A stretch of 64,000 nt of DNA from Naegleria gruberi (taxonomy: Eukaryota). The position numbers and the translations under genes are program-made. The DNA is taken from NCBI GenBank assembly GCA_000004985.1, contig GG738866.1; one strand, 5' to 3'. Under the pieces are notes generated by a model. That model was not told where the DNA came from. It saw nothing but the letters and a program-made list of their open reading frames with translations, and ran no database searches. Position 1 is the first letter of the stretch. Each line of letters begins with the position of its first letter. Shown in pieces: positions 10,483-51,206 of this stretch.

Positions 10483-10555
10483 TGCCGACACCAGGGATCG
10501 AACCAGGGACCTTAAGATCTTCAGTCTTACGCTCTCCCAACTGAGCTATGTCGGC
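10483..10555 (-). tRNA. tRNA-Phe(GAA): tRNA-Phe (anticodon GAA)
   Basis: The reverse complement reads GCCGACATAGCTCAGTTGGGAGAGCGTAAGACTGAAGATCTTAAGGTCCCTGGTTCGATCCCTGGTGTCGGCA. It has the canonical cloverleaf, the TGAAGA anticodon loop and GGTTCGATCC T-arm. It is close to metazoan/protist tRNA-Phe. Confidence 0.85.
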
Positions 10556-16132: not shown

Positions 16133-17953
16133 TTAATTGAAATAGTGCTTTGTGTGTTCTCTTGGATGGAAATATAGTGGATACTTGTTAGTGTTAATGT
16201 AGAACATTGATTGGTCAGTCTCCATTTCTGGGAATTCAGAATGTTTCTTTGTGAGAGTAAAGTTTCTAATGACATTGATCAAAAGGAAATGGAGCTCTGT
16301 ATTTGCAACACGACTTCCGGGACATTTTCTTAACAAATAGTTAATACTATTACAAAAGAAACAAATAACTTACCTTGCACCAACCTATATTATTCACATT
16401 TTCAACATTTTCAAAATGAATTCGAAAGGAGAAATGTTTAGAATCAGTAAAATTAAAAAGAAACAACTTACTCCGAAAGGAATTGAAGAAAACATTGATT
16501 TTGGAGCAAGAGGGGATTTCTTTTCATGTCTCTCAGGAATAAATTCCAAAGCTCTCGGAACGTATTCATCTTTCATGCTTGGATAATAATTCATGAAAAT
16601 TGCAATAGTTTCCTTTGGTAGAATATATCCACCAATTTCAATATCAGAATTCAATTGTCTTCCCATTGTAATGTAAGCAAATGAATTGAATCTTAAAACT
16701 TCTTCAACAAATTGTCTCACCAACTTGAGTTGTTTGTATTGCTCTGGGGTGATGATTAGTCCATTTTCAGATGAAACTTCATCCAAAGCCGGAGGACCAA
16801 AAACCTCAAGGCACTCGTTATAGAGCTTTTCTTGATATTCTGGATGATGAGCCAATCTGTACAAGATAAAATTCATGATACGACTTGTAATATCCACACC
16901 TCCCTGAATAAATGTAGAGAGAACTGTTGACACCTTTTCATTTGAGTTGGTGGCTCCCTCTGCCTTCTTTACAAGAATTTCGTAAAATCTTGGCTTGGCA
17001 TTTTCTGGTTGTGAAGCTCCAAATCTTTCAACACAATATCTGGCATTGTCAATCACTTGATCGTAATAACTCTCCAATGTCTTGTACTCCTCTGTCTTGA
17101 AATATTTGTAGAGTGGGAACTTGTAATCTAATCTTCCACACAAATCAAGAATTGTGATGGCTTTCTTTGAGAAATCGTCAAGTTTGAATGGTAAACTCTT
17201 TTCAAGCTCTTCAGTCATTTTGACACCAAAGAAAATTTTCATAATTGCATCGAATGCATATCTAGAAGTTGCTTCGAGACCATCATCAAGTCTGAATTGA
17301 TTTTCACCAACTTTTACAAAGTTCTTCTTCAATTGTCTGATCAAATCACTGTTCATTTCTGTCAGTTGAGGTACCACGATTTGATCGAGAAACTCTGGTT
17401 TCATGGCAAGGTTGAAGATTTGACGAATTTCATTCCAATTCTCTTCAATCTTCATTTCAATAGGTACCATTTCATAACCACGGCTTTCTTTGTAATATCT
17501 TGAAGGATTTAGAACTGTTCTACGTTCCTCAACTCTGGCAAGATCAGCAATCCAGTATGGGTTTGAAATGATAACCATATTTTTGTTTAAAGCAGTCAAC
17601 TTGACCATCTCTCCATACTCATTACACAAATCAAGAAAATAACTCATTGTATTCTTGGAGTGTTTCTTGATATCCAGATAGTTACCAAGAATTGGAAGAG
17701 GCTTAGGGCCTGGAATTTCTCCAAATGGTTTGGCAACAGATTTGGCCACATCTACTGTACCATCCTCTTTATGATAGGGACACTTGGCTTCAGTGTTGGC
17801 AGCAACAGATGAAATAGTTATGGATTCCTTTGTGGAATCTTGGTGATGGTACAATCTATTGTTGCTGTGGTGTGTTGTTAAAACAGAGAGAACCTGTTGT
17901 AGTAGAGGTTTGTGGATGAGGGCAGCATGTCTGATGGATTTGAGTGATGACAT
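16133..17953 (-). CDS. Cytochrome P450, mitochondrial-clan-like; exons 16472..17953, 16374..16384 (11-nt micro-exon), 16133..16328
   Basis: N-terminal presequence-like region then PGPKPLPILGN; EEVLRFNSF (ExxR); FIPERH (PERF); ..IPFG|GTAAGT. The heme loop FG-VGAR-KCPG is only restored by including GTTGGTGCAAG, flanked by AATATAG| and |GTAAGTT, then AAAATGTCCCGGAAGTCGT. Confidence 0.75.
16374..16384 (-). other. 11-nt micro-exon (GTTGGTGCAAG) encoding VGA(R) of the P450 heme-binding loop
   Basis: Perfect acceptor (atatag) and donor (gtaagt) flank it. The phases (0 in, 2 out) match both neighbouring exons. Confidence 0.6.
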
Positions 17954-18560: not shown

Positions 18561-19702
18561 CTAGTACTTCTTTTCCTTTTTTGCAACATTCTCATTGTAG
18601 AATTGAAAGTAAAAATCAAAAACCTTTTCACAAGTTTGAAGTGGCATTCTTTCAACTGTTTTCTTATATCCTTTGGAACATCTGTTAAGCAACTCATCCT
18701 TAATACTATTCTCGAATAATTTTGCTTTTTCATAACATAAAACCAATCTCAACTCAGAATAGGTTATAGCGATAGGTTCGCATGATTCTTCAATCAATCT
18801 TAAATGTTCTTCATAGGCGCCAATTTCAAATGGTGGTAGAAATTTAATTTCACTCAAATTATAAAACGAGTCATTGACCATTCTTTGGTAAATAAGTTTA
18901 ACCTTTTCTAAATTGTCTCTCTGGTCCTGGTTAATAAAGTTGACATCTACAGTACTTTCAATTAAATTGAAATGCTTTGAAATAAACGGTTTTAACAATG
19001 GTAAATAATAATCTTCATGTAATTCGAGTAACTCAAGAGCTGGAAAACTCAAATATTCAATCACAAATGTTGGATGATTGATGCTAAGAACAATGTTAAG
19101 GTTAATTTCCTTCTTTGCACCAACTAGAAATCCAATTAGCTCTCCTTCAAAAGTAAAAACAGGTGATCCAGACATTCCAGGACTAGTCTGGTTATCAATA
19201 GAAAGTTTGAATTAATGGCTGAAATAACTCCCAAACTAGCTGTTCTACTATTGTAGGTGAATTTCTTAAATTCCTCCTTTAAGTCCTGGCTTATAACCTC
19301 AGCATTAAAGAAGGATTCAGAAGGAAATAGTGGAAAACCAATAAGTATTACTGGCGTTCCACTTTCTAGAATGTGAGTAGATGGAATAATGAACTTCCTT
19401 TTTGAACTACACTCTAATGGTTTAACAGACCTTAACAATGAAAAATCATACTTGGTATCGGGATGAATTATTGGAAAATATTCTCTAGTAAGGGATATAT
19501 ATTCTTGATCAACAATTCTATCGTAAAGGGATCGAGAGAACCTAAATTGTTGAGTTTCATCTTTTGGTGGATATTCTGCAAATGTCCCATAAAATTTATC
19601 TTTATCCTTGCTAACCCCATCATATGTAAGAAAGTGGCCAGATTTGCAAACAAAAAAATGGAACGACCAGATGTTATCATTGATTGGCGTGATGAAACTG
19701 TA
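18561..19702 (-). pseudogene. Trypsin-fold serine-protease-like paralog A, apparently disrupted: no ATG, and a 1-nt frameshift near 19200
   Basis: This copy aligns to paralog B: KYDFSLLRSVKP.. vs KKFDFSLLERKKP.., and GFPLFPSE vs IGYPKRV. ..ASLGVISAINSNF is followed, after a +1 frame change, by IDNQTSPGMSGSPVFTFEGELIGFLVG, which is GxSGSPV with the nucleophile Ser present. The open frame runs up to a stop at ~19703 with no in-frame ATG. Confidence 0.4.
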
Positions 19703-20887
19703 TCAGAAGATGAAACTCATCTTTTATATGATGAGAATGATTCATCAAAGGTTGTGAACAAGCCTTTTGTAAGAATACTTGGTTATATATTTTGGTGGGA
19801 GGAGAAATGTAAGACGTTATCACCTCATCATCAACCAATCTTTGCAAGAGAAAATCCACAAGTTGAAAGACTAAGATACTCTCAAGATCTTCCAGAGAGT
19901 GTTGAGGGATATCCTGTTGAAGAATATTTAAAGTATGACACTCAGTGGTTAGAAACTGTAAAGTATCAATGTTATTGCTATGCAAGAATAGTATCAGATG
20001 TGGTTGGAAGTGGAGTTTCAGGATTTCAACTTTCACCTTCATTTGCTAGTACCACCAGAACATTTGTTCATTATATTCCTCAAGCTTCTTATTATTCTAC
20101 TAATAATCATTACACGATGGTGAATCAGAAAAATTTAGCTAAAATTAGAATAGATTGGTTTAGATGTGAAATTGTTGAATTAGAAAAAAAGTTACATGCT
20201 AAAATATTTAGAAAACTTGGAATGAAAGAAAAATTGCCAGAAACTAAAGAAAAGCCAAAGAAAAAGTTTGATTTTTCACTATTAGAAAGAAAAAAGCCAA
20301 ATAGAGCTATTCCCATTGAGGCAAATGTTAATTATGTTATTCCAAATATCAATTATCCAATTAAATTGGAAGATCCTATCATGTTAATTGGTTATCCTAA
20401 ACGTGTAACAAAGCAATATTATCTTGATAATTATGAAAACGATCGTTTTCCTTTATACAGAGACGATTTTGATAACTTTTTTGGTTTATCATTTTTCAAA
20501 ATTGGAAGTTTAGGAAGAATTAAGAGTTTCAATGATAATTATATTCTTGTTTCAAACTCTGCATTGTGTGGAATGGGTGGTTCACCTGTTTTGACATTTG
20601 ATGGTCAATTAATTGGTTTTTTAATTGGTTCCACTAAAAAACTTGAATATAATATTGTAATGAGAGTTAATCATCCTTCTTTTATAATTGAATATTTAAG
20701 TTTTCCTGCATTTGAATTATTAGAATTGAATCAAGATTTGTATTTTCCATTATTAGAATATATTATTACAAAACATTTACATATTATTGAAATTGCTATA
20801 AATTCTAAGAAGTTAAAGAATGAAAGAAAGAGACAAAATCTTGTAAAGATTTTACAAATCTATCAGCAAAGAATTCAAAAACAATAA
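19658..20887 (+). CDS. Trypsin-fold (GxSGxP-type) protease-like protein, paralog B, intact ORF; possible pseudo-protease
   Basis: MERPDVIIDW... The C-terminal domain reads ..IMLIGYPKRV..FFKIGSLGRIKSFNDNYILVSNSALCGMGGSPVLTFDGQLIGFLIGS. Gly sits where the catalytic Ser of GxSGxP is expected. Confidence 0.55.
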   Translation: MERPDVIIDWRDETVSEDETHLLYDENDSSKVVNKPFVRILGYIFWWEEKCKTLSPHHQPIFARENPQVERLRYSQDLPESVEGYPVEEYLKYDTQWLETVKYQCYCYARIVSDVVGSGVSGFQLSPSFASTTRTFVHYIPQASYYSTNNHYTMVNQKNLAKIRIDWFRCEIVELEKKLHAKIFRKLGMKEKLPETKEKPKKKFDFSLLERKKPNRAIPIEANVNYVIPNINYPIKLEDPIMLIGYPKRVTKQYYLDNYENDRFPLYRDDFDNFFGLSFFKIGSLGRIKSFNDNYILVSNSALCGMGGSPVLTFDGQLIGFLIGSTKKLEYNIVMRVNHPSFIIEYLSFPAFELLELNQDLYFPLLEYIITKHLHIIEIAINSKKLKNERKRQNLVKILQIYQQRIQKQ

Positions 20888-21050: not shown

Positions 21051-22790
21051 TTAAACTTGTAATTCTTCAGGATCCATGTATTGGTCACGAAGGAGGTCAA
21101 TATCTTTCTTCTTTGGCAGATTCATTGATACGAGTTTACCACCACTCAATCTGAAACAATCACTCTGCGATCTTTGATGTTTGTTTACAACTTTAGGGAA
21201 ATGTTTCAGTAATTGAGATTCAATTTCTGCATAAGAATTATAGGTGACTTTAGTAGCTTGCACCAATAATTTTCCTTGTTTGTTGATTCTGTAACATCTG
21301 GTTGGATCAATATTTACACTAACATATGAAATGCAATCTGTTGGTCTGTTACCAAATCCGCTATAGAATGGGAAATCTGTTGGGAATAAACTAGCAATTG
21401 AACCAAGGCAATTAATTTTGAATGTTTCAGGTCTTCTAATAACAACTTCTCTTGCCAGAGCACTAAATGCCTTGTTGGGCGATGTAATGATTGGACCAGG
21501 TGGCATTTTATACCCATCTTGGTAGACAGAGTTGATATATTCTCGAGTTAATTGTGACATTGTAATTGGTCTGGCACTAAGGTAAATAAATTTGTAATTA
21601 TTTTCAGCTATCGATTGAAATAATTTGGCAATTCCTGGATGAGTGTAGTCTTTACCCATTCTACTGTACACTTGACCCATAATATCTGATTTGGTGATAG
21701 TTCCATCAATATCACTAATAATTATCTTATCTTGTGGTGAAAATTCGAAAATGTAAGCCTTGACAGGTTCTAGCCCACCATTTGGATCAATAAATGAAAT
21801 GGAAGAGCGACCATCAGTCATATGTGAATGAATTAATTCTAAATATTCTTTAGATGGACGAAGTCTATGTTCTGGGTGAGTTTCTTGATCAATGGATTTA
21901 AGCCATTTATCCATATAGCCAACTTTTGATGGAGATCCAGCTGTATAATAACCTGATTCTTCCTCAGCTGTTGGAGTCATTGTTCTAGATTTTCTAGGAT
22001 TACTACCAGCTCTTGGTCTTTGGAAAACAGCTCCTGTTCTTGATCTAGACCTTGAAGTGGATGTTTCCTCTTCAACCATTCTTTGAATTTCCTTTTCTTC
22101 ATCATCCGGATCTTCTCCTTCCTGTTCCATTTCTTTTATCATTTCTCGTTCTTCTCTTCTTAATTCTTCATTTTCTTCTGGTGAAGTAGCCAACATGCTT
22201 GCTCTATTTTCAGTTTTGATTATTAAATTTTGTGGAAGAGTTTTCTTTGGAAGAGGAGGAAGATCTTTTGGAGACATTGAAGAAGGGCTTGTAGGATTAT
22301 TCTGTGACTTGTCATCTTCGTATAATAGATCACTTGGTGGTTTTTGAATTTCATTCGTTTTTTTAGGAAGAGGAGGTAAAGATTTTTTCCTGTATTGTGC
22401 TATCATGGTTGCTGTCTCATCTGATTGGACAACACTTGCTACAGTCTTATTATTTCCAACAATAATTCCTGATGGAGAAGGAGGAGGAACAGATGATGTT
22501 TGTGAATCATTGACTTGTGGATTATCACGAGTTTCAACACTGAAATATGCATAATTGTGGTCAGGATCGACAATAAGTTCACATCCAGGACAGCTAATTT
22601 TCTTTCCATTAACTTGAACAGTGATGACTCTTCTTATCTTACTTCTTTGTGGAAAACGAATAAAGAAAGGTGATGATTGGAATGAACCATCATCTTGTTT
22701 GACAAGTACAACACTATATAATTAAATACATTCCGTTATTATTATTAAAATCATCAACCGATATAAACACACTTACTCTACAGCAGCCAT
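21051..22790 (-). CDS. LPIN: Lipin / phosphatidate phosphatase (N-LIP + LNS2/C-LIP HAD-like domain); exons 22777..22790 and 21051..22713
   Basis: The catalytic motif is DIDGTITKSD, followed by ..GYKFIYLSARPI..FYSGFGNRPTD. The upstream region gives MAAVD|VVLVKQDDGSFQSSPFFIRFPQ (N-LIP-like) via ATGGCTGCTGTAGA|GTAAGTG..ATATAG|TGTTGTAC. Confidence 0.75.
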
Positions 22791-47972: not shown

Positions 47973-48353
47973 TTAATCTTCTTAATTTAGATTCATTGTA
48001 AAGAATCATAAATTGTTGCCTTACTTTTCTCAGTATTTGTAAGTAGGTTGAATTGGTTCTTCACTCTTTGTTTTATTTATTACAATGAAAGCAACCTATA
48101 GAAAATCATATATTCTGTTGTAACTTCTATTTCATTAAATATCTCACTCAAACTCCTCTTTGTTTTTATCAAAGGTTGTCTAAATGAGCTCTTATTCTTG
48201 AAGAAAATACTCTTCCGCCCCTAACAAACAATACACAATCTAAACATTCACTATTATTAATTAATAAATAGCTAAATAATTATTCTCTGATGGTTTCTGT
48301 TGATGAGATGATGACAATAATAATTGAACCAAATTTTTATTGATTCAAAAAAA

Positions 48354-51206
48354 ATGAGCAACAATTCATCATCTAAAAATTTCCAACAAAACACAAAATT
48401 GTTGAATAAATCTCAGCACTTGATAAAGAGTTTTCACATTTCTCCTTTCATTTCGCTAGTATATAAGAATGATATTGGAGATAATATACAACGTGTAGCT
48501 TTTTCTAATGTATCACAACAATTCTATATTTGTTGTGCTGATAGTAAAATTAATATAGTTGAATATGCAACAGGAGAAAGATTATATACTATCGAAGCCG
48601 ATTCAAATGTTACTTGTCTTTCATTAAGTTCGGATGATAGATTCCTTGCTGTTAGTTGTAAGAGTGGACAAGTTACAATTTATAGTATGAAGCAACAAAA
48701 GGCTTTGAAAACTTTCCGAGTTGGTGTTTCTTCACCTGTTATTCAATTAGCCTACTCTCCTGATGATGCCTTTTTAGCTATGGCTCATGGTGATGGTAGT
48801 ATTGATATTTATTATACTCCTACAACTCAAGATGAATCAACAGGACAACCTGCTTTACTTAAATTATTATTTACAATTAAGAAACATCATCAAGGACAAA
48901 TACATTTAATGAAATGGATTGATAATTTATGGTTAGCATCAAGTGGTTTGGATGGAGCTAAAGTAATGCAAATAGGAAATGAAGAAGATGAAAGTCGTCC
49001 ATATAAAATTATTGCAAGTATTCATGATAATAGAAATGATATTAGAGATGTTACTTTATTGAAGGAACATGATACTGAAGATAATACTAAACCAATTTAT
49101 TTAATGACTGCTGGACATGGTTCTTTATATCAATTTAAATGGAATGAAAAGAATTCTACATTCAATTTATCTAACACAATTCCTATCAAACATTATTTCT
49201 CAAGTATGATTGAAATAACTTCTACTGAAAATGATTCATTTACTCTTATTGCCAGTACTCCTGTTAAGAAAAAGAATAATTTGGTGAGGATAACAGTTAA
49301 GAAACCACAAGTTTCTGATAAAAAGAAGAAGAAGGACGAAGATGATGACGATGATGCTGTTAAAATTGAATATATTCCTGAAAAATCACTTGTTGGTCTT
49401 TCGCAATTATTCAAATTATCTGATTCTGAAATTTTTGCTATTACCATTGATTCAAATTTTGCAATTTTCAAGAGAAAGGAGAATGAAGCAAATGGTGATG
49501 AATCTGCTAAAGCTAAACTCAAGAAGAAACTTTCAAAGAAGGAAGATGTTACAGAAGTTGCCTCTAAAGGAGTTTTGTTTGAAAAAGTTGGTCAAAGATT
49601 GGGATTCAACGATGATGTCTTGGATATGTCATTGTTCTCATCTAGAAATATGTTGGCCGTCGCTACAAATTCTGAGAATGTTACCTTGTTGAATTTGAGT
49701 GATGCCAATCAAGATCCAATTGAAGTTTCTGGACACTCTGAAATGATCTTGTCTCTTGATCGCTCAAAGGATAAGGATCAACGTTATTTGGTCACTGGTT
49801 CTAAGGATAAATCTATTAGAGTTTGGGATGTCTCTAAATACGGAAATACACAAGGAGAAGAACATGTCACCCCTGTTTCTGTTGGTACAAGCCACTTGAC
49901 CGGTGTTACTGCTGTCTGTGTTTCTAACCACAAACGAAAGCTCAAAGATTCTAAGGAAGAAGATTTCTTCATTTACTCTGCATCAGATGATGGTGTTCTT
50001 AAAAAGTGGAAATTATCTGATTGTAGCTTGTTAGGTACAAACTCTGAAAGCCACAAAAAGACTGTCAGTGAAATTTCAGTTTCACCTGATGATTCAATGA
50101 TTGCCACTGCTAGTGCTGATAAGACTGCTAAAGTTTTTGATACTTCTGATTTGTCTAAGGTTCTCTTTGAATTCCCTCACAAGAAAGCAGTGTGGTGTGT
50201 CAAGTTCTCACCTGTTGATAAAGTTATTGCTACTGGTTGCAGTGATAACATGATTAGAATTTGGTCTTTAAAGACTGGTAACTGTGTTAAAGTTTTGGAA
50301 GGTCATGATCAATCAATTCTCAAGATGCAATTCTTGAATAATGGTGCTCAATTGGTTTCTGCAGATGCCAATGGTGTTGTAAGATTGTGGGTTATTAAGA
50401 CTGGTGAATGCATTAAAGTTTTTGGTGATGCTCACACTGACAGAATTTGGGCTGTTTCTGTAGATCAAAAGACCAATCAATTGATTACTGGTGGTGAAGA
50501 TTCCAGAATTAATATTTGGCATGATAACACTGAAGAAATTAAGGAAGAACAAAGAGAAGATGTAAATTTGTCAGTTATTCAAGATCAAGAATTGAGGAAT
50601 TTGGAAAGACAAGGTAAAATGAAGGATGTCCTTAGAAAAGCCATTGAATTGGATAGACCAAAGCTCACCTATACAACCATTGAAAAACTTGTCAAGACTG
50701 ATGAGAAGACTGTCTTGGAAGGTTTGATTATGGAATTACCAAAGATTCACCTTATGCACCTATTCCAATACTGTATTGATTGGAACTCTAACTCAAAGTT
50801 TTGTCAAATTGCTCAACTTGTTTTAAAGATAATGTTTGACCTTGTAGAACCATCTTTCATTGATATTGCCTATGAAAAATCAGTAGATGCTTTGTCATTG
50901 TACAGTCAGAGACACTTAAAGAGAATAACTTATTTAGAACAAAAGAGTTTCATTTTAGAACATGCATTGAATCAAATGAATGCCTTAACGCCAATCGAAA
51001 ATTCATCCAATGTTGAAACTTTGAAGAGTATGCCATCAAAGAAGAGAAAGGAAATTGATACATCAAAGGTTGTTCAAGAACCAATTCAGTTCAAGACTGT
51101 TGAAGTTGTTGATGAAGATGTAGAATTTTCAGACCAAGAAGGAGAATTTGATGAAGATGGTGAAGAGGAAACATTCGAACCATCTACAAAAAAGCAAAAA
51201 AATTAA
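48354..51206 (+). CDS. UTP13: U3 snoRNP protein UTP13/TBL3 (WD40 repeats + Utp13 C-terminal domain)
   Basis: ~10 WD repeats (..LVTGSKDKSIRVWDV.., ..ATGCSDNMIRIWSL.., ..SADANGVVRLWVI..). The C-terminal Utp13 block reads VLRKAIELDRPKLTY..LPKIHLMHLFQYCIDWNSNSKFCQIAQLVLKIMF. Confidence 0.75.
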   Translation: MSNNSSSKNFQQNTKLLNKSQHLIKSFHISPFISLVYKNDIGDNIQRVAFSNVSQQFYICCADSKINIVEYATGERLYTIEADSNVTCLSLSSDDRFLAVSCKSGQVTIYSMKQQKALKTFRVGVSSPVIQLAYSPDDAFLAMAHGDGSIDIYYTPTTQDESTGQPALLKLLFTIKKHHQGQIHLMKWIDNLWLASSGLDGAKVMQIGNEEDESRPYKIIASIHDNRNDIRDVTLLKEHDTEDNTKPIYLMTAGHGSLYQFKWNEKNSTFNLSNTIPIKHYFSSMIEITSTENDSFTLIASTPVKKKNNLVRITVKKPQVSDKKKKKDEDDDDDAVKIEYIPEKSLVGLSQLFKLSDSEIFAITIDSNFAIFKRKENEANGDESAKAKLKKKLSKKEDVTEVASKGVLFEKVGQRLGFNDDVLDMSLFSSRNMLAVATNSENVTLLNLSDANQDPIEVSGHSEMILSLDRSKDKDQRYLVTGSKDKSIRVWDVSKYGNTQGEEHVTPVSVGTSHLTGVTAVCVSNHKRKLKDSKEEDFFIYSASDDGVLKKWKLSDCSLLGTNSESHKKTVSEISVSPDDSMIATASADKTAKVFDTSDLSKVLFEFPHKKAVWCVKFSPVDKVIATGCSDNMIRIWSLKTGNCVKVLEGHDQSILKMQFLNNGAQLVSADANGVVRLWVIKTGECIKVFGDAHTDRIWAVSVDQKTNQLITGGEDSRINIWHDNTEEIKEEQREDVNLSVIQDQELRNLERQGKMKDVLRKAIELDRPKLTYTTIEKLVKTDEKTVLEGLIMELPKIHLMHLFQYCIDWNSNSKFCQIAQLVLKIMFDLVEPSFIDIAYEKSVDALSLYSQRHLKRITYLEQKSFILEHALNQMNALTPIENSSNVETLKSMPSKKRKEIDTSKVVQEPIQFKTVEVVDEDVEFSDQEGEFDEDGEEETFEPSTKKQKN

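What the first reader, a model, noticed from the sequence alone, without database searches (positions are those of the whole stretch)
18561..20887. Head-to-head, 5'-overlapping pair of trypsin-fold paralogs: one frameshifted with intact Ser, one intact with Gly at the nucleophile position
Gene B (+, 19658..20887) and copy A (-, ~19702..18561) share blocks in the same order: ENPQVERLRYSQDLPESV vs KDETQQFRFSRSLYDRIV; KKFDFSLLERKKP vs KYDFSLLRSVKP; LIGYP vs LIGFP; GSLGRIKSFN vs ASLGVISAIN; the GxSGSPV region. A lacks ~150 aa of B, has no in-frame ATG, and needs a +1 shift near 19200. Its open frame overlaps B's start codon on the opposite strand (19658-19702). A still carries GMSGSPVF, the canonical GxSGSP with Ser. 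The intact B has GMGGSPVL, with Gly where the catalytic Ser should be. Both copies may be non-catalytic, as a pseudogene plus a pseudo-enzyme. Alternatively the assembly carries a 1-nt error in an active gene.
Basis: seen in the sequence. Interest (0 to 1): 0.55.

Follow-up and report, generated by a model that had tools for sequence, protein, structure and literature searches.

The report
Dead protease gene beside broken paralog
Two neighbouring, oppositely oriented Naegleria gruberi genes are old copies of one trypsin-like protease gene: one is intact but has lost two of its three catalytic residues, and the other keeps the catalytic serine but is broken, which is ordinary gene-family decay and not a new system.

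Summary
The window is Naegleria gruberi. Gene B (19658..20887, +) is the annotated 409-aa protein NAEGRDRAFT_67300.

Copy A lies on the minus strand as two open frames, 19702..19190 and 19190..18561. Its 3' ORF is annotated as the 204-aa NAEGRDRAFT_67299. A and B share 41% identity over 207 aa (E 3e-45).

Both belong to a small, uncurated family of about 350-410-aa trypsin-fold proteins. The only long relative-bearing contig read carries eukaryotic genes. The family motifs are LSPxxxxTAxH, DFSLL, GxSGxP and a C-terminal helical module, YNxxxSVHHPxFVxEY.

A keeps Asp and Ser. It has no ATG, no recognisable N-terminal or His module, and a -1 frameshift at 19186-19192. A 1-nt fix alone would not restore a gene. 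A's C-terminal module is as well conserved as B's, so any inactivation is recent.

Interest is low: a new member of a known kind.

The parts
19658..20887 (+). Gene B: intact single-exon CDS, 409 aa. This is N. gruberi NAEGRDRAFT_67300 / XP_002677551 / D2VEJ5. It is a trypsin-fold pseudo-protease with a C-terminal helical module.
20060..20062 (+). B codon 135 (ACA, Thr), at the family's catalytic-His column (motif LSPxxxxTAxH; B reads LSPSFASTTRT).
   Evidence: Family alignment and triad table. HMM alignment. The family 'tarH' column aligns to the SplA 'TNKH' motif. Codon.
20270..20272 (+). B codon 205 (GAT, Asp) in FDFSLL. This is the catalytic-Asp column and it is retained.
   Evidence: sequence.
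20576..20578 (+). B codon 307 (GGT, Gly), at the nucleophile position of GxSGxP (GMGGSP).
   Evidence: The A+B and family profiles (consensus GmsGsP) align this motif with PGNSGSPVL of Spl proteases; B itself reads GMGGSP at the same columns.
19190..19702 (-). Copy A, upstream open frame (171 codons, no ATG). Codons 81-171 (19462..19190) are homologous to the family, from the Asp motif YDFSLL (Asp codon 19447-19445) to NFLLIT. Codons 1-80 (19702..19463) are open but cannot be aligned.
   Evidence: Codon-usage log-ratio is 0.20 for 19199-19462 but only 0.09 for 19463-19702. By base composition, P(80 codons stop-free) is about 0.001.
19186..19192 (-). Frameshift in A. The downstream frame is -1 relative to the upstream frame, and one or two residues are missing compared with relatives. 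There is no homopolymer and no X XXY YYZ slippery heptamer.
   Evidence: Three-frame translation. tblastx of the P0004 locus switches frame here. Family sequences.
18561..19189 (-). Copy A, downstream open frame to the stop. It contains GMSGSPVF (Ser codon TCT at 19172-19170), the conserved C-terminal helical module, and a ~100-aa A-specific tail (about 18564-18872) with no homologs.
   Evidence: Codon-usage log-ratio 0.31-0.35, equal to B.
18561..19175 (-). Annotated gene model NAEGRDRAFT_67299 / XP_002677636 / D2VEJ4 (204 aa). This is simply the ATG-ORF after the frameshift. It starts at the Met of GMSGSP, inside the second beta-barrel.
   Evidence: ORF list. Exact match to P0002 and its source names.
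19703..19705 (-). In-frame TGA that closes A's frame at its 5' end. An in-frame ATG lies five codons further upstream (19720-19718; MSFIF*YSFIT...).
   Evidence: Read directly from the sequence.
18945..19179 (.). Left arm of the 235-nt, 72%-complementary inverted repeat. The right arm is 20569-20803. It is the best-conserved stretch of the duplication (GxSGSP through the helical module).

Best explanation
A and B descend from an old head-to-head duplication within a small Naegleria expansion of an uncurated family of trypsin-fold proteins; the family looks eukaryotic (protist), judged from the gene content of one relative's contig. Family members are about 350-410 aa and combine a PA-clan double beta-barrel with a conserved C-terminal helical module.

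B keeps the whole fold and every non-catalytic family motif, but it has Thr at the catalytic His position and Gly at the nucleophile Ser position. It cannot work as a serine protease. It most likely acts as a non-catalytic protease-fold protein that binds something without cleaving it. That last step is inference. No signal-peptide or localisation prediction was run.

A kept the Asp and Ser motifs and stayed under protein-level constraint until recently. It is now a disabled copy. It has no start codon, its N-terminal/His module is missing or unrecognisable, its 5' end abuts and overlaps B's start codon, and a -1 frameshift lies four codons upstream of the GMSGSP motif. The annotated 204-aa model NAEGRDRAFT_67299 is the leftover ATG-ORF, not a protease.

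The unlinked third paralog NAEGRDRAFT_54069 has Glu at the Ser position and no His motif. So none of the three detectable N. gruberi copies is a competent protease.
For: Shown:
- Organism and gene identities.
- Paralogy: E 3e-45, 41% identity over 207 aa.
- Family: 21 proteins at E<1e-3 in 1.84 billion representatives. The one relative-bearing contig read in detail carries eukaryotic genes: WD40, oxysterol-binding, SNF2/Mot1-like.
- Triad table: B is T/D/G, P0003 is -/D/E, and A has D and S. Six full-length (P0005, P0007, P0012, P0015, P0017, P0021) and two partial (P0013, P0014) hits are H/D/S. P0020 has Ala, P0016 has Phe, and the partial P0009 has Val at the Ser position.
- The family's His and Ser columns align to SplA TNKH and PGNSGSPVL.
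- B's two losses are independent and need several base changes: ACA at the His position, and GGT against TCT/TCA in A and P0004. A single sequencing error cannot explain them.
- A's defects: no ATG, TGA at 19705-19703, frameshift at 19186-19192. A profile of B residues 1-135 finds nothing else in any frame of the 64 kb. A's first 80 codons score -0.1 bits against the family profile.
- Recent rather than ancient decay: a profile built without any Naegleria sequence scores the Asp-to-end module at 112 bits for A, 113 for B and 113 for P0003. A's codon usage equals B's. There are no stops in 384 codons.
Against: - There are no expression or read data, so A's frameshift could still be an assembly error. 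An unrecognised 5' exon or an unusual start cannot be excluded.
- A's high conservation and clean frames are exactly what a live gene would show.
- If A's 5' part was deleted recently, B's promoter region went with it, yet B is intact.
- MAFFT (not significantly) places A's KSGH at the His column. A may therefore retain all three triad residues.
- The B model is low-confidence for residues 1-119 and 135-203.
- B's function as a binding protein is pure inference.
Confidence: 0.6

Rival explanations
1. A is a live gene. The frameshift is a 1-nt assembly error (Sanger draft), and the start lies in an unrecognised 5' exon or is otherwise missed. A would then be the catalytically competent member of the pair (Asp and Ser present, possibly His at KSGH).
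For: A's C-terminal module scores the same as the intact paralogs against an independent profile. Codon usage is equal to B's. There is no stop in 170+214 codons. The repaired A passes the Pfam Trypsin_2 cut-off (35.2 bits against 27.6), whereas B does not. MAFFT puts an A histidine in the His column.
Against: At least two independent corrections are needed: the frameshift and the start or N-terminus. The site (ATAACCAGACTAG) has no homopolymer. Relative to its relatives A lacks 4 nt there, not 1. No N-terminal module is found on any strand or frame in 64 kb. The space upstream is occupied by B's CDS on the other strand. A's first 80 codons show weak codon bias (0.09) and no profile match.
Confidence: 0.2
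2. The annotated 204-aa ORF (18561..19175) is a genuine stand-alone product. It would be the last strands of barrel 2 plus the helical module plus the A-specific tail, kept for a non-protease role after the gene was truncated.
For: It has an ATG and 204 intact codons. Its codon-usage signal is the strongest in the locus, 0.31-0.35, including the 100-aa tail that has no homologs. It is a deposited gene model.
Against: It begins at the Met inside GMSGSP, in the middle of a beta-barrel. The 171 codons just upstream, in the neighbouring frame, are also open and homologous, which points to one recently interrupted gene. No homolog elsewhere has this truncated architecture. No expression evidence was found.
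Confidence: 0.12
3. B is itself a dying gene, an unexpressed pseudogene that merely has not yet picked up a stop, and not a conserved pseudo-enzyme.
For: Two catalytic residues are lost. B's promoter space is occupied by A's body, because A's frame overlaps B's ATG. No close ortholog was found, and the nearest non-gruberi relative has E 1e-40.
Against: B has 409 stop-free codons in 32% GC DNA, where about 8% of random codons are stops. Its codon usage is 0.31. It retains all non-catalytic family motifs and the N-terminal module. Its profile score equals that of the other paralogs. A second, unlinked full-length dead paralog exists. Full-length relatives elsewhere also carry non-Ser residues at the Ser position, namely P0016 and P0020, which suggests that dead forms are maintained.
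Confidence: 0.08

Closest known systems
Staphylococcal S1B serine proteases (SplA-F, V8/GluV8, Esp, exfoliative toxins)
   Different: Sequence identity is only 13-20%. B lacks the catalytic His and Ser. B carries a ~120-aa N-terminal region and a ~70-aa C-terminal helical module that those enzymes lack. Those enzymes are secreted bacterial proteins (general knowledge), whereas this family sits in eukaryotic genomes. Whether B itself has a signal peptide was not tested.
Pfam Trypsin_2 (PF13365) / HtrA-DegP type S1C proteases
   Same: Trypsin_2 is the only Pfam family hit with any weight. HtrA/Deg proteases are among the top structural matches.
   Different: B and nearly all core family members fall below the Trypsin_2 gathering score of 27.6 bits: B 18.1, P0003 24.8, P0004 27.2. 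No PDZ domain was found.
Known catalytically dead trypsin-fold proteins (scabies-mite SMIPP-S, HGF/MSP protease-like domain, azurocidin/HBP)
   Same: The principle is the same: the chymotrypsin fold is kept and triad residues are replaced. SMIPP-S, HGF and HBP structures appear among the structural matches. Their non-catalytic status is established knowledge, not tested here.
   Different: They are unrelated lineages (animal S1A, extracellular). No sequence relationship exists beyond the fold. Their binding functions cannot be transferred to B.

Membership tests
PA clan / chymotrypsin-fold (S1-like) proteins | Two six-stranded beta-barrels with the chymotrypsin topology | tested here: met
PA clan / chymotrypsin-fold (S1-like) proteins | Catalytic triad His-Asp-Ser in the conserved motifs | tested here: not met
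   B has Thr135, Asp205 and Gly307. A has Asp and Ser present, and His is inconclusive. MAFFT places KSGH there, while the HMM gives no significant alignment and weakly prefers another register.
Pfam Trypsin_2 (PF13365) | Score at or above the curated gathering threshold (27.6 bits) | tested here: not met
   B scores 18.1 bits, E 0.005. The frame-repaired A scores 35.2 bits and would pass.
HtrA/DegP (S1C) | Protease domain followed by one or more PDZ domains | tested here: not met
   No PDZ hit in Pfam for A, B or their relatives. The C-terminus is an all-helical module instead.
Staphylococcal-type S1B (glutamyl endopeptidase/Spl) | Secreted enzyme with signal peptide/propeptide, an intact triad and a ~200-aa protease domain only | tested here: not met
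   The triad is not intact in B. B is 409 aa with extra N- and C-terminal regions. Signal-peptide prediction was not run.
Unnamed eukaryotic (protist) trypsin-fold family found here (P0001, P0003-P0010, P0013, P0016, P0020, P0021) | Motif set LSPxxxxTAxH ... DFSLL ... IGYP ... GxSGxP ... YNxxxSVHHPxFVxEY plus C-terminal helices, with a length of about 350-410 aa | tested here: met
   B matches along its whole length: profile positions 34-308 of 322 using a profile without Naegleria sequences, 137 bits. A matches from DFSLL to the end, 112 bits. The family definition is mine, taken. It is not curated.
Processed or unprocessed pseudogene (for A) | Disabling lesions (frameshift, loss of start) and absence of expression | tested here: inconclusive
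   The lesions are present in the assembly. Expression and read support cannot be tested here. Conservation and codon usage argue against long-standing neutrality.

The most novel reading that the evidence does not exclude
This pair exposes an undescribed, patchily distributed eukaryotic (protist) family of trypsin-fold proteins with a conserved C-terminal helical module (YNxxxSVHHPxFVxEY). In this family several members carry non-canonical residues at triad positions: Gly, Glu, Ala, Phe and Val at the Ser position; Thr, or the whole motif missing, at the His position; Gly, Asn and Lys at the Asp position. Whether these are independent losses was not tested. N. gruberi would keep only non-catalytic copies, which implies a conserved non-proteolytic role for the fold plus helical module.
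Probability: 0.45. Interest if true: 0.35.

Novelty: new member of a known kind. Interest (0 to 1): 0.2.

Why it matters
The main value is for annotation.
- NAEGRDRAFT_67299 should be flagged as a fragment or pseudogene of a trypsin-fold gene.
- NAEGRDRAFT_67300 and NAEGRDRAFT_54069 should be labelled as non-peptidase homologues and not left as "predicted protein".

The small family these genes define is absent from Pfam at curated thresholds. It shows varied triad substitutions across its members. It could therefore serve as a modest natural test case for how protease folds are kept after catalysis is lost. Nothing here points to a new mechanism or system.

Tried and rejected
- Intron instead of frameshift: rejected. 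The alignment to B and P0004 is continuous across 19186-19192, with at most two residues missing, so there is no room for an intron.
- Programmed -1 frameshift: rejected. There is no X XXY YYZ heptamer at the site.
The best local alignment of the N-terminal regions scores 26, against a shuffle mean of 28.
- MAFFT-style colinear alignment of A 10-80 with B 132-199: only 38 of 500 shuffles reach it, so it is not convincing.
- The 16-nt (15/16) inverted match at 19551-19566 / 19704-19719 (A KDETQ against B EDETH): 47% of Markov shuffles of the region give such a match, so it is at chance level.
- Search for A's missing N-terminal module in all six frames of the 64 kb: nothing found.
- Word-indexed homolog searches returned only B itself and one relative. 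The full HMMER scan was what found the family.
- Single-sequence AF2 of B was useless, pLDDT 37.
- N. gruberi contigs are not in the gene-position index, so the genomic context of the third paralog could not be read.
- The AFDB Foldseek library was unavailable.
- BFVD gave only generic trypsin-like viral proteins, so there is no sign of a viral origin.
- No synteny between the window and the contigs of relatives.
- No paper mentions these loci.

Full report
**What is there**

The window is AT-rich (about 33% GC) eukaryotic DNA. Gene B (19658..20887, +) is 100% identical to a 409-aa "predicted protein" of Naegleria gruberi, NAEGRDRAFT_67300 / XP_002677551 / D2VEJ5, on a 469-kb scaffold.

Copy A lies on the opposite strand in two reading frames.
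- Frame -1 runs from 19702 to about 19190. It has 170-171 codons and no ATG, and it is closed upstream by TGA at 19705-19703.
- Frame -3 runs from there to the stop at 18563-18561.
- The ATG-ORF in the second frame (18561..19175, 204 aa, beginning at the Met of GMSGSP) is itself a deposited gene model, NAEGRDRAFT_67299 / D2VEJ4.

**Is the similarity real?**

Yes.
- The frame-joined A and B give 41% identity over 207 aa, E 3e-45.
- tblastn recovers the same two pieces and no further copy in the 64 kb.
- The best-conserved stretch is visible at DNA level as a 235-nt inverted repeat, 72% identical, at 18945-19179 / 20569-20803.

The significant similarity covers only B 200-406 against A 81-277, that is from the DFSLL motif to the end of the helical module.
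- A's first 80 codons match neither B nor a family profile, score -0.1 bits.
- The claimed ~150-aa internal deletion therefore cannot be demonstrated.
None is significant.
- A 15/16-nt inverted match at 19551-19566 / 19704-19719 is also at chance level.

**The frameshift**

The relative P0004 reads NFLLITAATSTGMSGSP. A reads NFLLIT in frame -1 up to 19190, then (c)ag-act-agt-cct-gga-atg... = TSPGMSGSP one base back. tblastx of the P0004 locus switches frame at the same point.

The shift is therefore at 19186-19192. The downstream frame is -1. A is four nucleotides short relative to its relatives, which amounts to one codon plus one base.

The site (ATAACCAGACTAG) has no homopolymer run and no slippery heptamer. 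No intron can be fitted, because the protein alignment is continuous.

**The family**

A full HMMER scan of 1.84 billion representatives with the A+B profile found 21 proteins at E<1e-3.
- They include a third N. gruberi paralog on another scaffold, P0003 = NAEGRDRAFT_54069, 362 aa.
- They also include about a dozen proteins of 350-400 aa from metagenome or SRA assemblies.
- One of these lies on an 11-kb contig with plainly eukaryotic genes: WD40, oxysterol-binding protein and a split SNF2/Mot1-like gene.

The shared motifs are LSPxxxxTAxH, DFSLL, IGYP, GxSGxP and YNxxxSVHHPxFVxEY, followed by helices. Core members fall below Pfam's Trypsin_2 cut-off, so the family is not curated.

Against solved structures, the family's "tarH" column aligns to SplA TNKH and "lpGmSGsPVl" aligns to PGNSGSPVL. 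From general knowledge, those are the catalytic His and Ser motifs of the staphylococcal S1B proteases.

**Catalytic residues**

| Protein | His | Asp | Ser |
|---|---|---|---|
| B | Thr135 (ACA) | Asp205 | Gly307 (GGT) |
| P0003 | motif absent | Asp | Glu |
| A | undecidable | Asp (19447-19445) | Ser (TCT, 19172-19170) |

- Six full-length (P0005, P0007, P0012, P0015, P0017, P0021) and two partial (P0013, P0014) hits are H/D/S.
- Others have lost one or more residues: P0020 has Ala and P0016 Phe at the Ser position, the partial P0009 has Val, P0016 also has Lys at the Asp position, and P0004 has Gly and P0008 Asn at the Asp position.
- B's two substitutions are independent. The Ser-to-Gly change differs at two bases from the TCT/TCA used by A and P0004. 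A sequencing slip does not explain a dead B.

**Fold of B**

Single-sequence AF2 failed, pLDDT 37. With the 12-sequence family alignment the model reaches pTM 0.59. Ten-residue block means of pLDDT are 55-93 over residues 201-409, and the C-terminus forms four helices.
- Foldseek agrees, E 3e-7 to SplC.
- Known inactive trypsin-fold proteins (SMIPP-S, HGF, HBP) are in the same lists.
- The viral structure library gives only generic hits.

**Is A an old wreck or a recent casualty?**

A profile built only from non-Naegleria members scores the Asp-to-end module at 112 bits for A, 113 for B and 113 for P0003.

Codon-usage log-ratios, trained on 18 long ORFs of the window:

| Region | Log-ratio |
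|---|---|
| B | 0.31 |
| A downstream frame | 0.31 |
| A-specific 100-aa tail | 0.35 |
| A 19199-19462 | 0.20 |
| A 19463-19702 | 0.09 |

A has no stop in 384 codons, although about 8% of random codons here are stops. The probability that 80 codons stay open is about 0.001.

So A was held under protein-level constraint for most of the time since the duplication. Its lesions are recent, or partly artefactual. Against simple repair:
- The upstream frame holds no ATG.
- A profile of B residues 1-135 finds nothing else in any frame of the 64 kb.
- The DNA upstream of A is B's own coding sequence on the other strand.

**The "5' overlap"**

A's open frame runs 45 nt past B's ATG, in exact codon-on-codon antisense register. 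B's ATG is the complement of A's CAT in "SFH". Because A has no start there, this is an ORF extension and not two overlapping genes.

It does mean that B's 5' flank consists of A's body. B's frame is also open upstream to 19442, with an in-frame ATG at 19463. That is probably a by-product of this register. The family N-termini (P0003, P0004) agree with the annotated start at 19658.

**Conclusion**

The most likely picture (confidence about 0.6) is a lineage-specific head-to-head duplicate pair.
- B is a maintained pseudo-protease.
- A is a recently disabled copy, whose leftover ORF has been annotated as a gene.

Rival readings:
- A is live, with an assembly error and a missed 5' exon (0.2).
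- The 204-aa ORF is a genuine truncated product (0.12).
- B is also dying (0.08).

What B does is unknown. A non-catalytic binding role is inferred only by analogy with other dead trypsin-fold proteins. No literature mentions these loci. This is a sound observation of an ordinary phenomenon. It has modest added value in defining an uncurated family that looks eukaryotic and whose members often carry non-canonical triad residues.

Noticed in passing
window 16133-17953 (-): A cytochrome P450 gene (Pfam p450, E 2.6e-50). Its ORF breaks right after '...IPFG', inside the haem-binding motif. The motif continues ('RKCPGSRVANTE...') in the ORF at 16133-16336, so a short intron of about 100-150 nt is likely. 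This fits a eukaryotic, intron-containing genome.
   Followed up: partly
window 21051-22406 (-), frame open up to 22721: A lipin/Ned1/Smp2-type LNS2 domain protein (Pfam LNS2, E 1.8e-78) lies immediately downstream of B and converges on it.
   Followed up: partly
window 10483-10555 (-): A single tRNA-Phe (GAA) gene. It is the only tRNA in the 64 kb.
   Followed up: no
window 19442-19657 (+): B's reading frame stays open for 72 codons upstream of the annotated ATG, with an in-frame ATG at 19463. The encoded stretch is hydrophobic and has no counterpart in relatives. It is the exact antisense register of A's open frame, so it is probably a by-product. A longer B isoform was not excluded.
   Followed up: partly
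window 19703-19720 (-): Just upstream of A's open frame lies an in-frame ATG followed by four codons and TGA (ATG AGT TTC ATC TTC TGA TAC AGT TTC ATC = MSFIF*YSFI). It contains a near-repeat, AGTTTCATC...AGTTTCATC. It could be the remnant of a start codon cut off by a nonsense change, or chance.
   Followed up: no
L003 921-1886 vs window 50241-50531: The gene next to the family member P0016, on a metagenome contig, shares weak similarity (tblastx E 7e-11) with part of the 960-codon ORF at window 48324-51203. This is probably a shared repeat or domain and not synteny.
   Followed up: no
P0003 (NAEGRDRAFT_54069, another N. gruberi scaffold, not in the window): A third N. gruberi paralog is full-length (362 aa), with GMEGSA (Glu at the nucleophile position) and the His motif deleted. 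Its genomic context could not be retrieved.
   Followed up: partly
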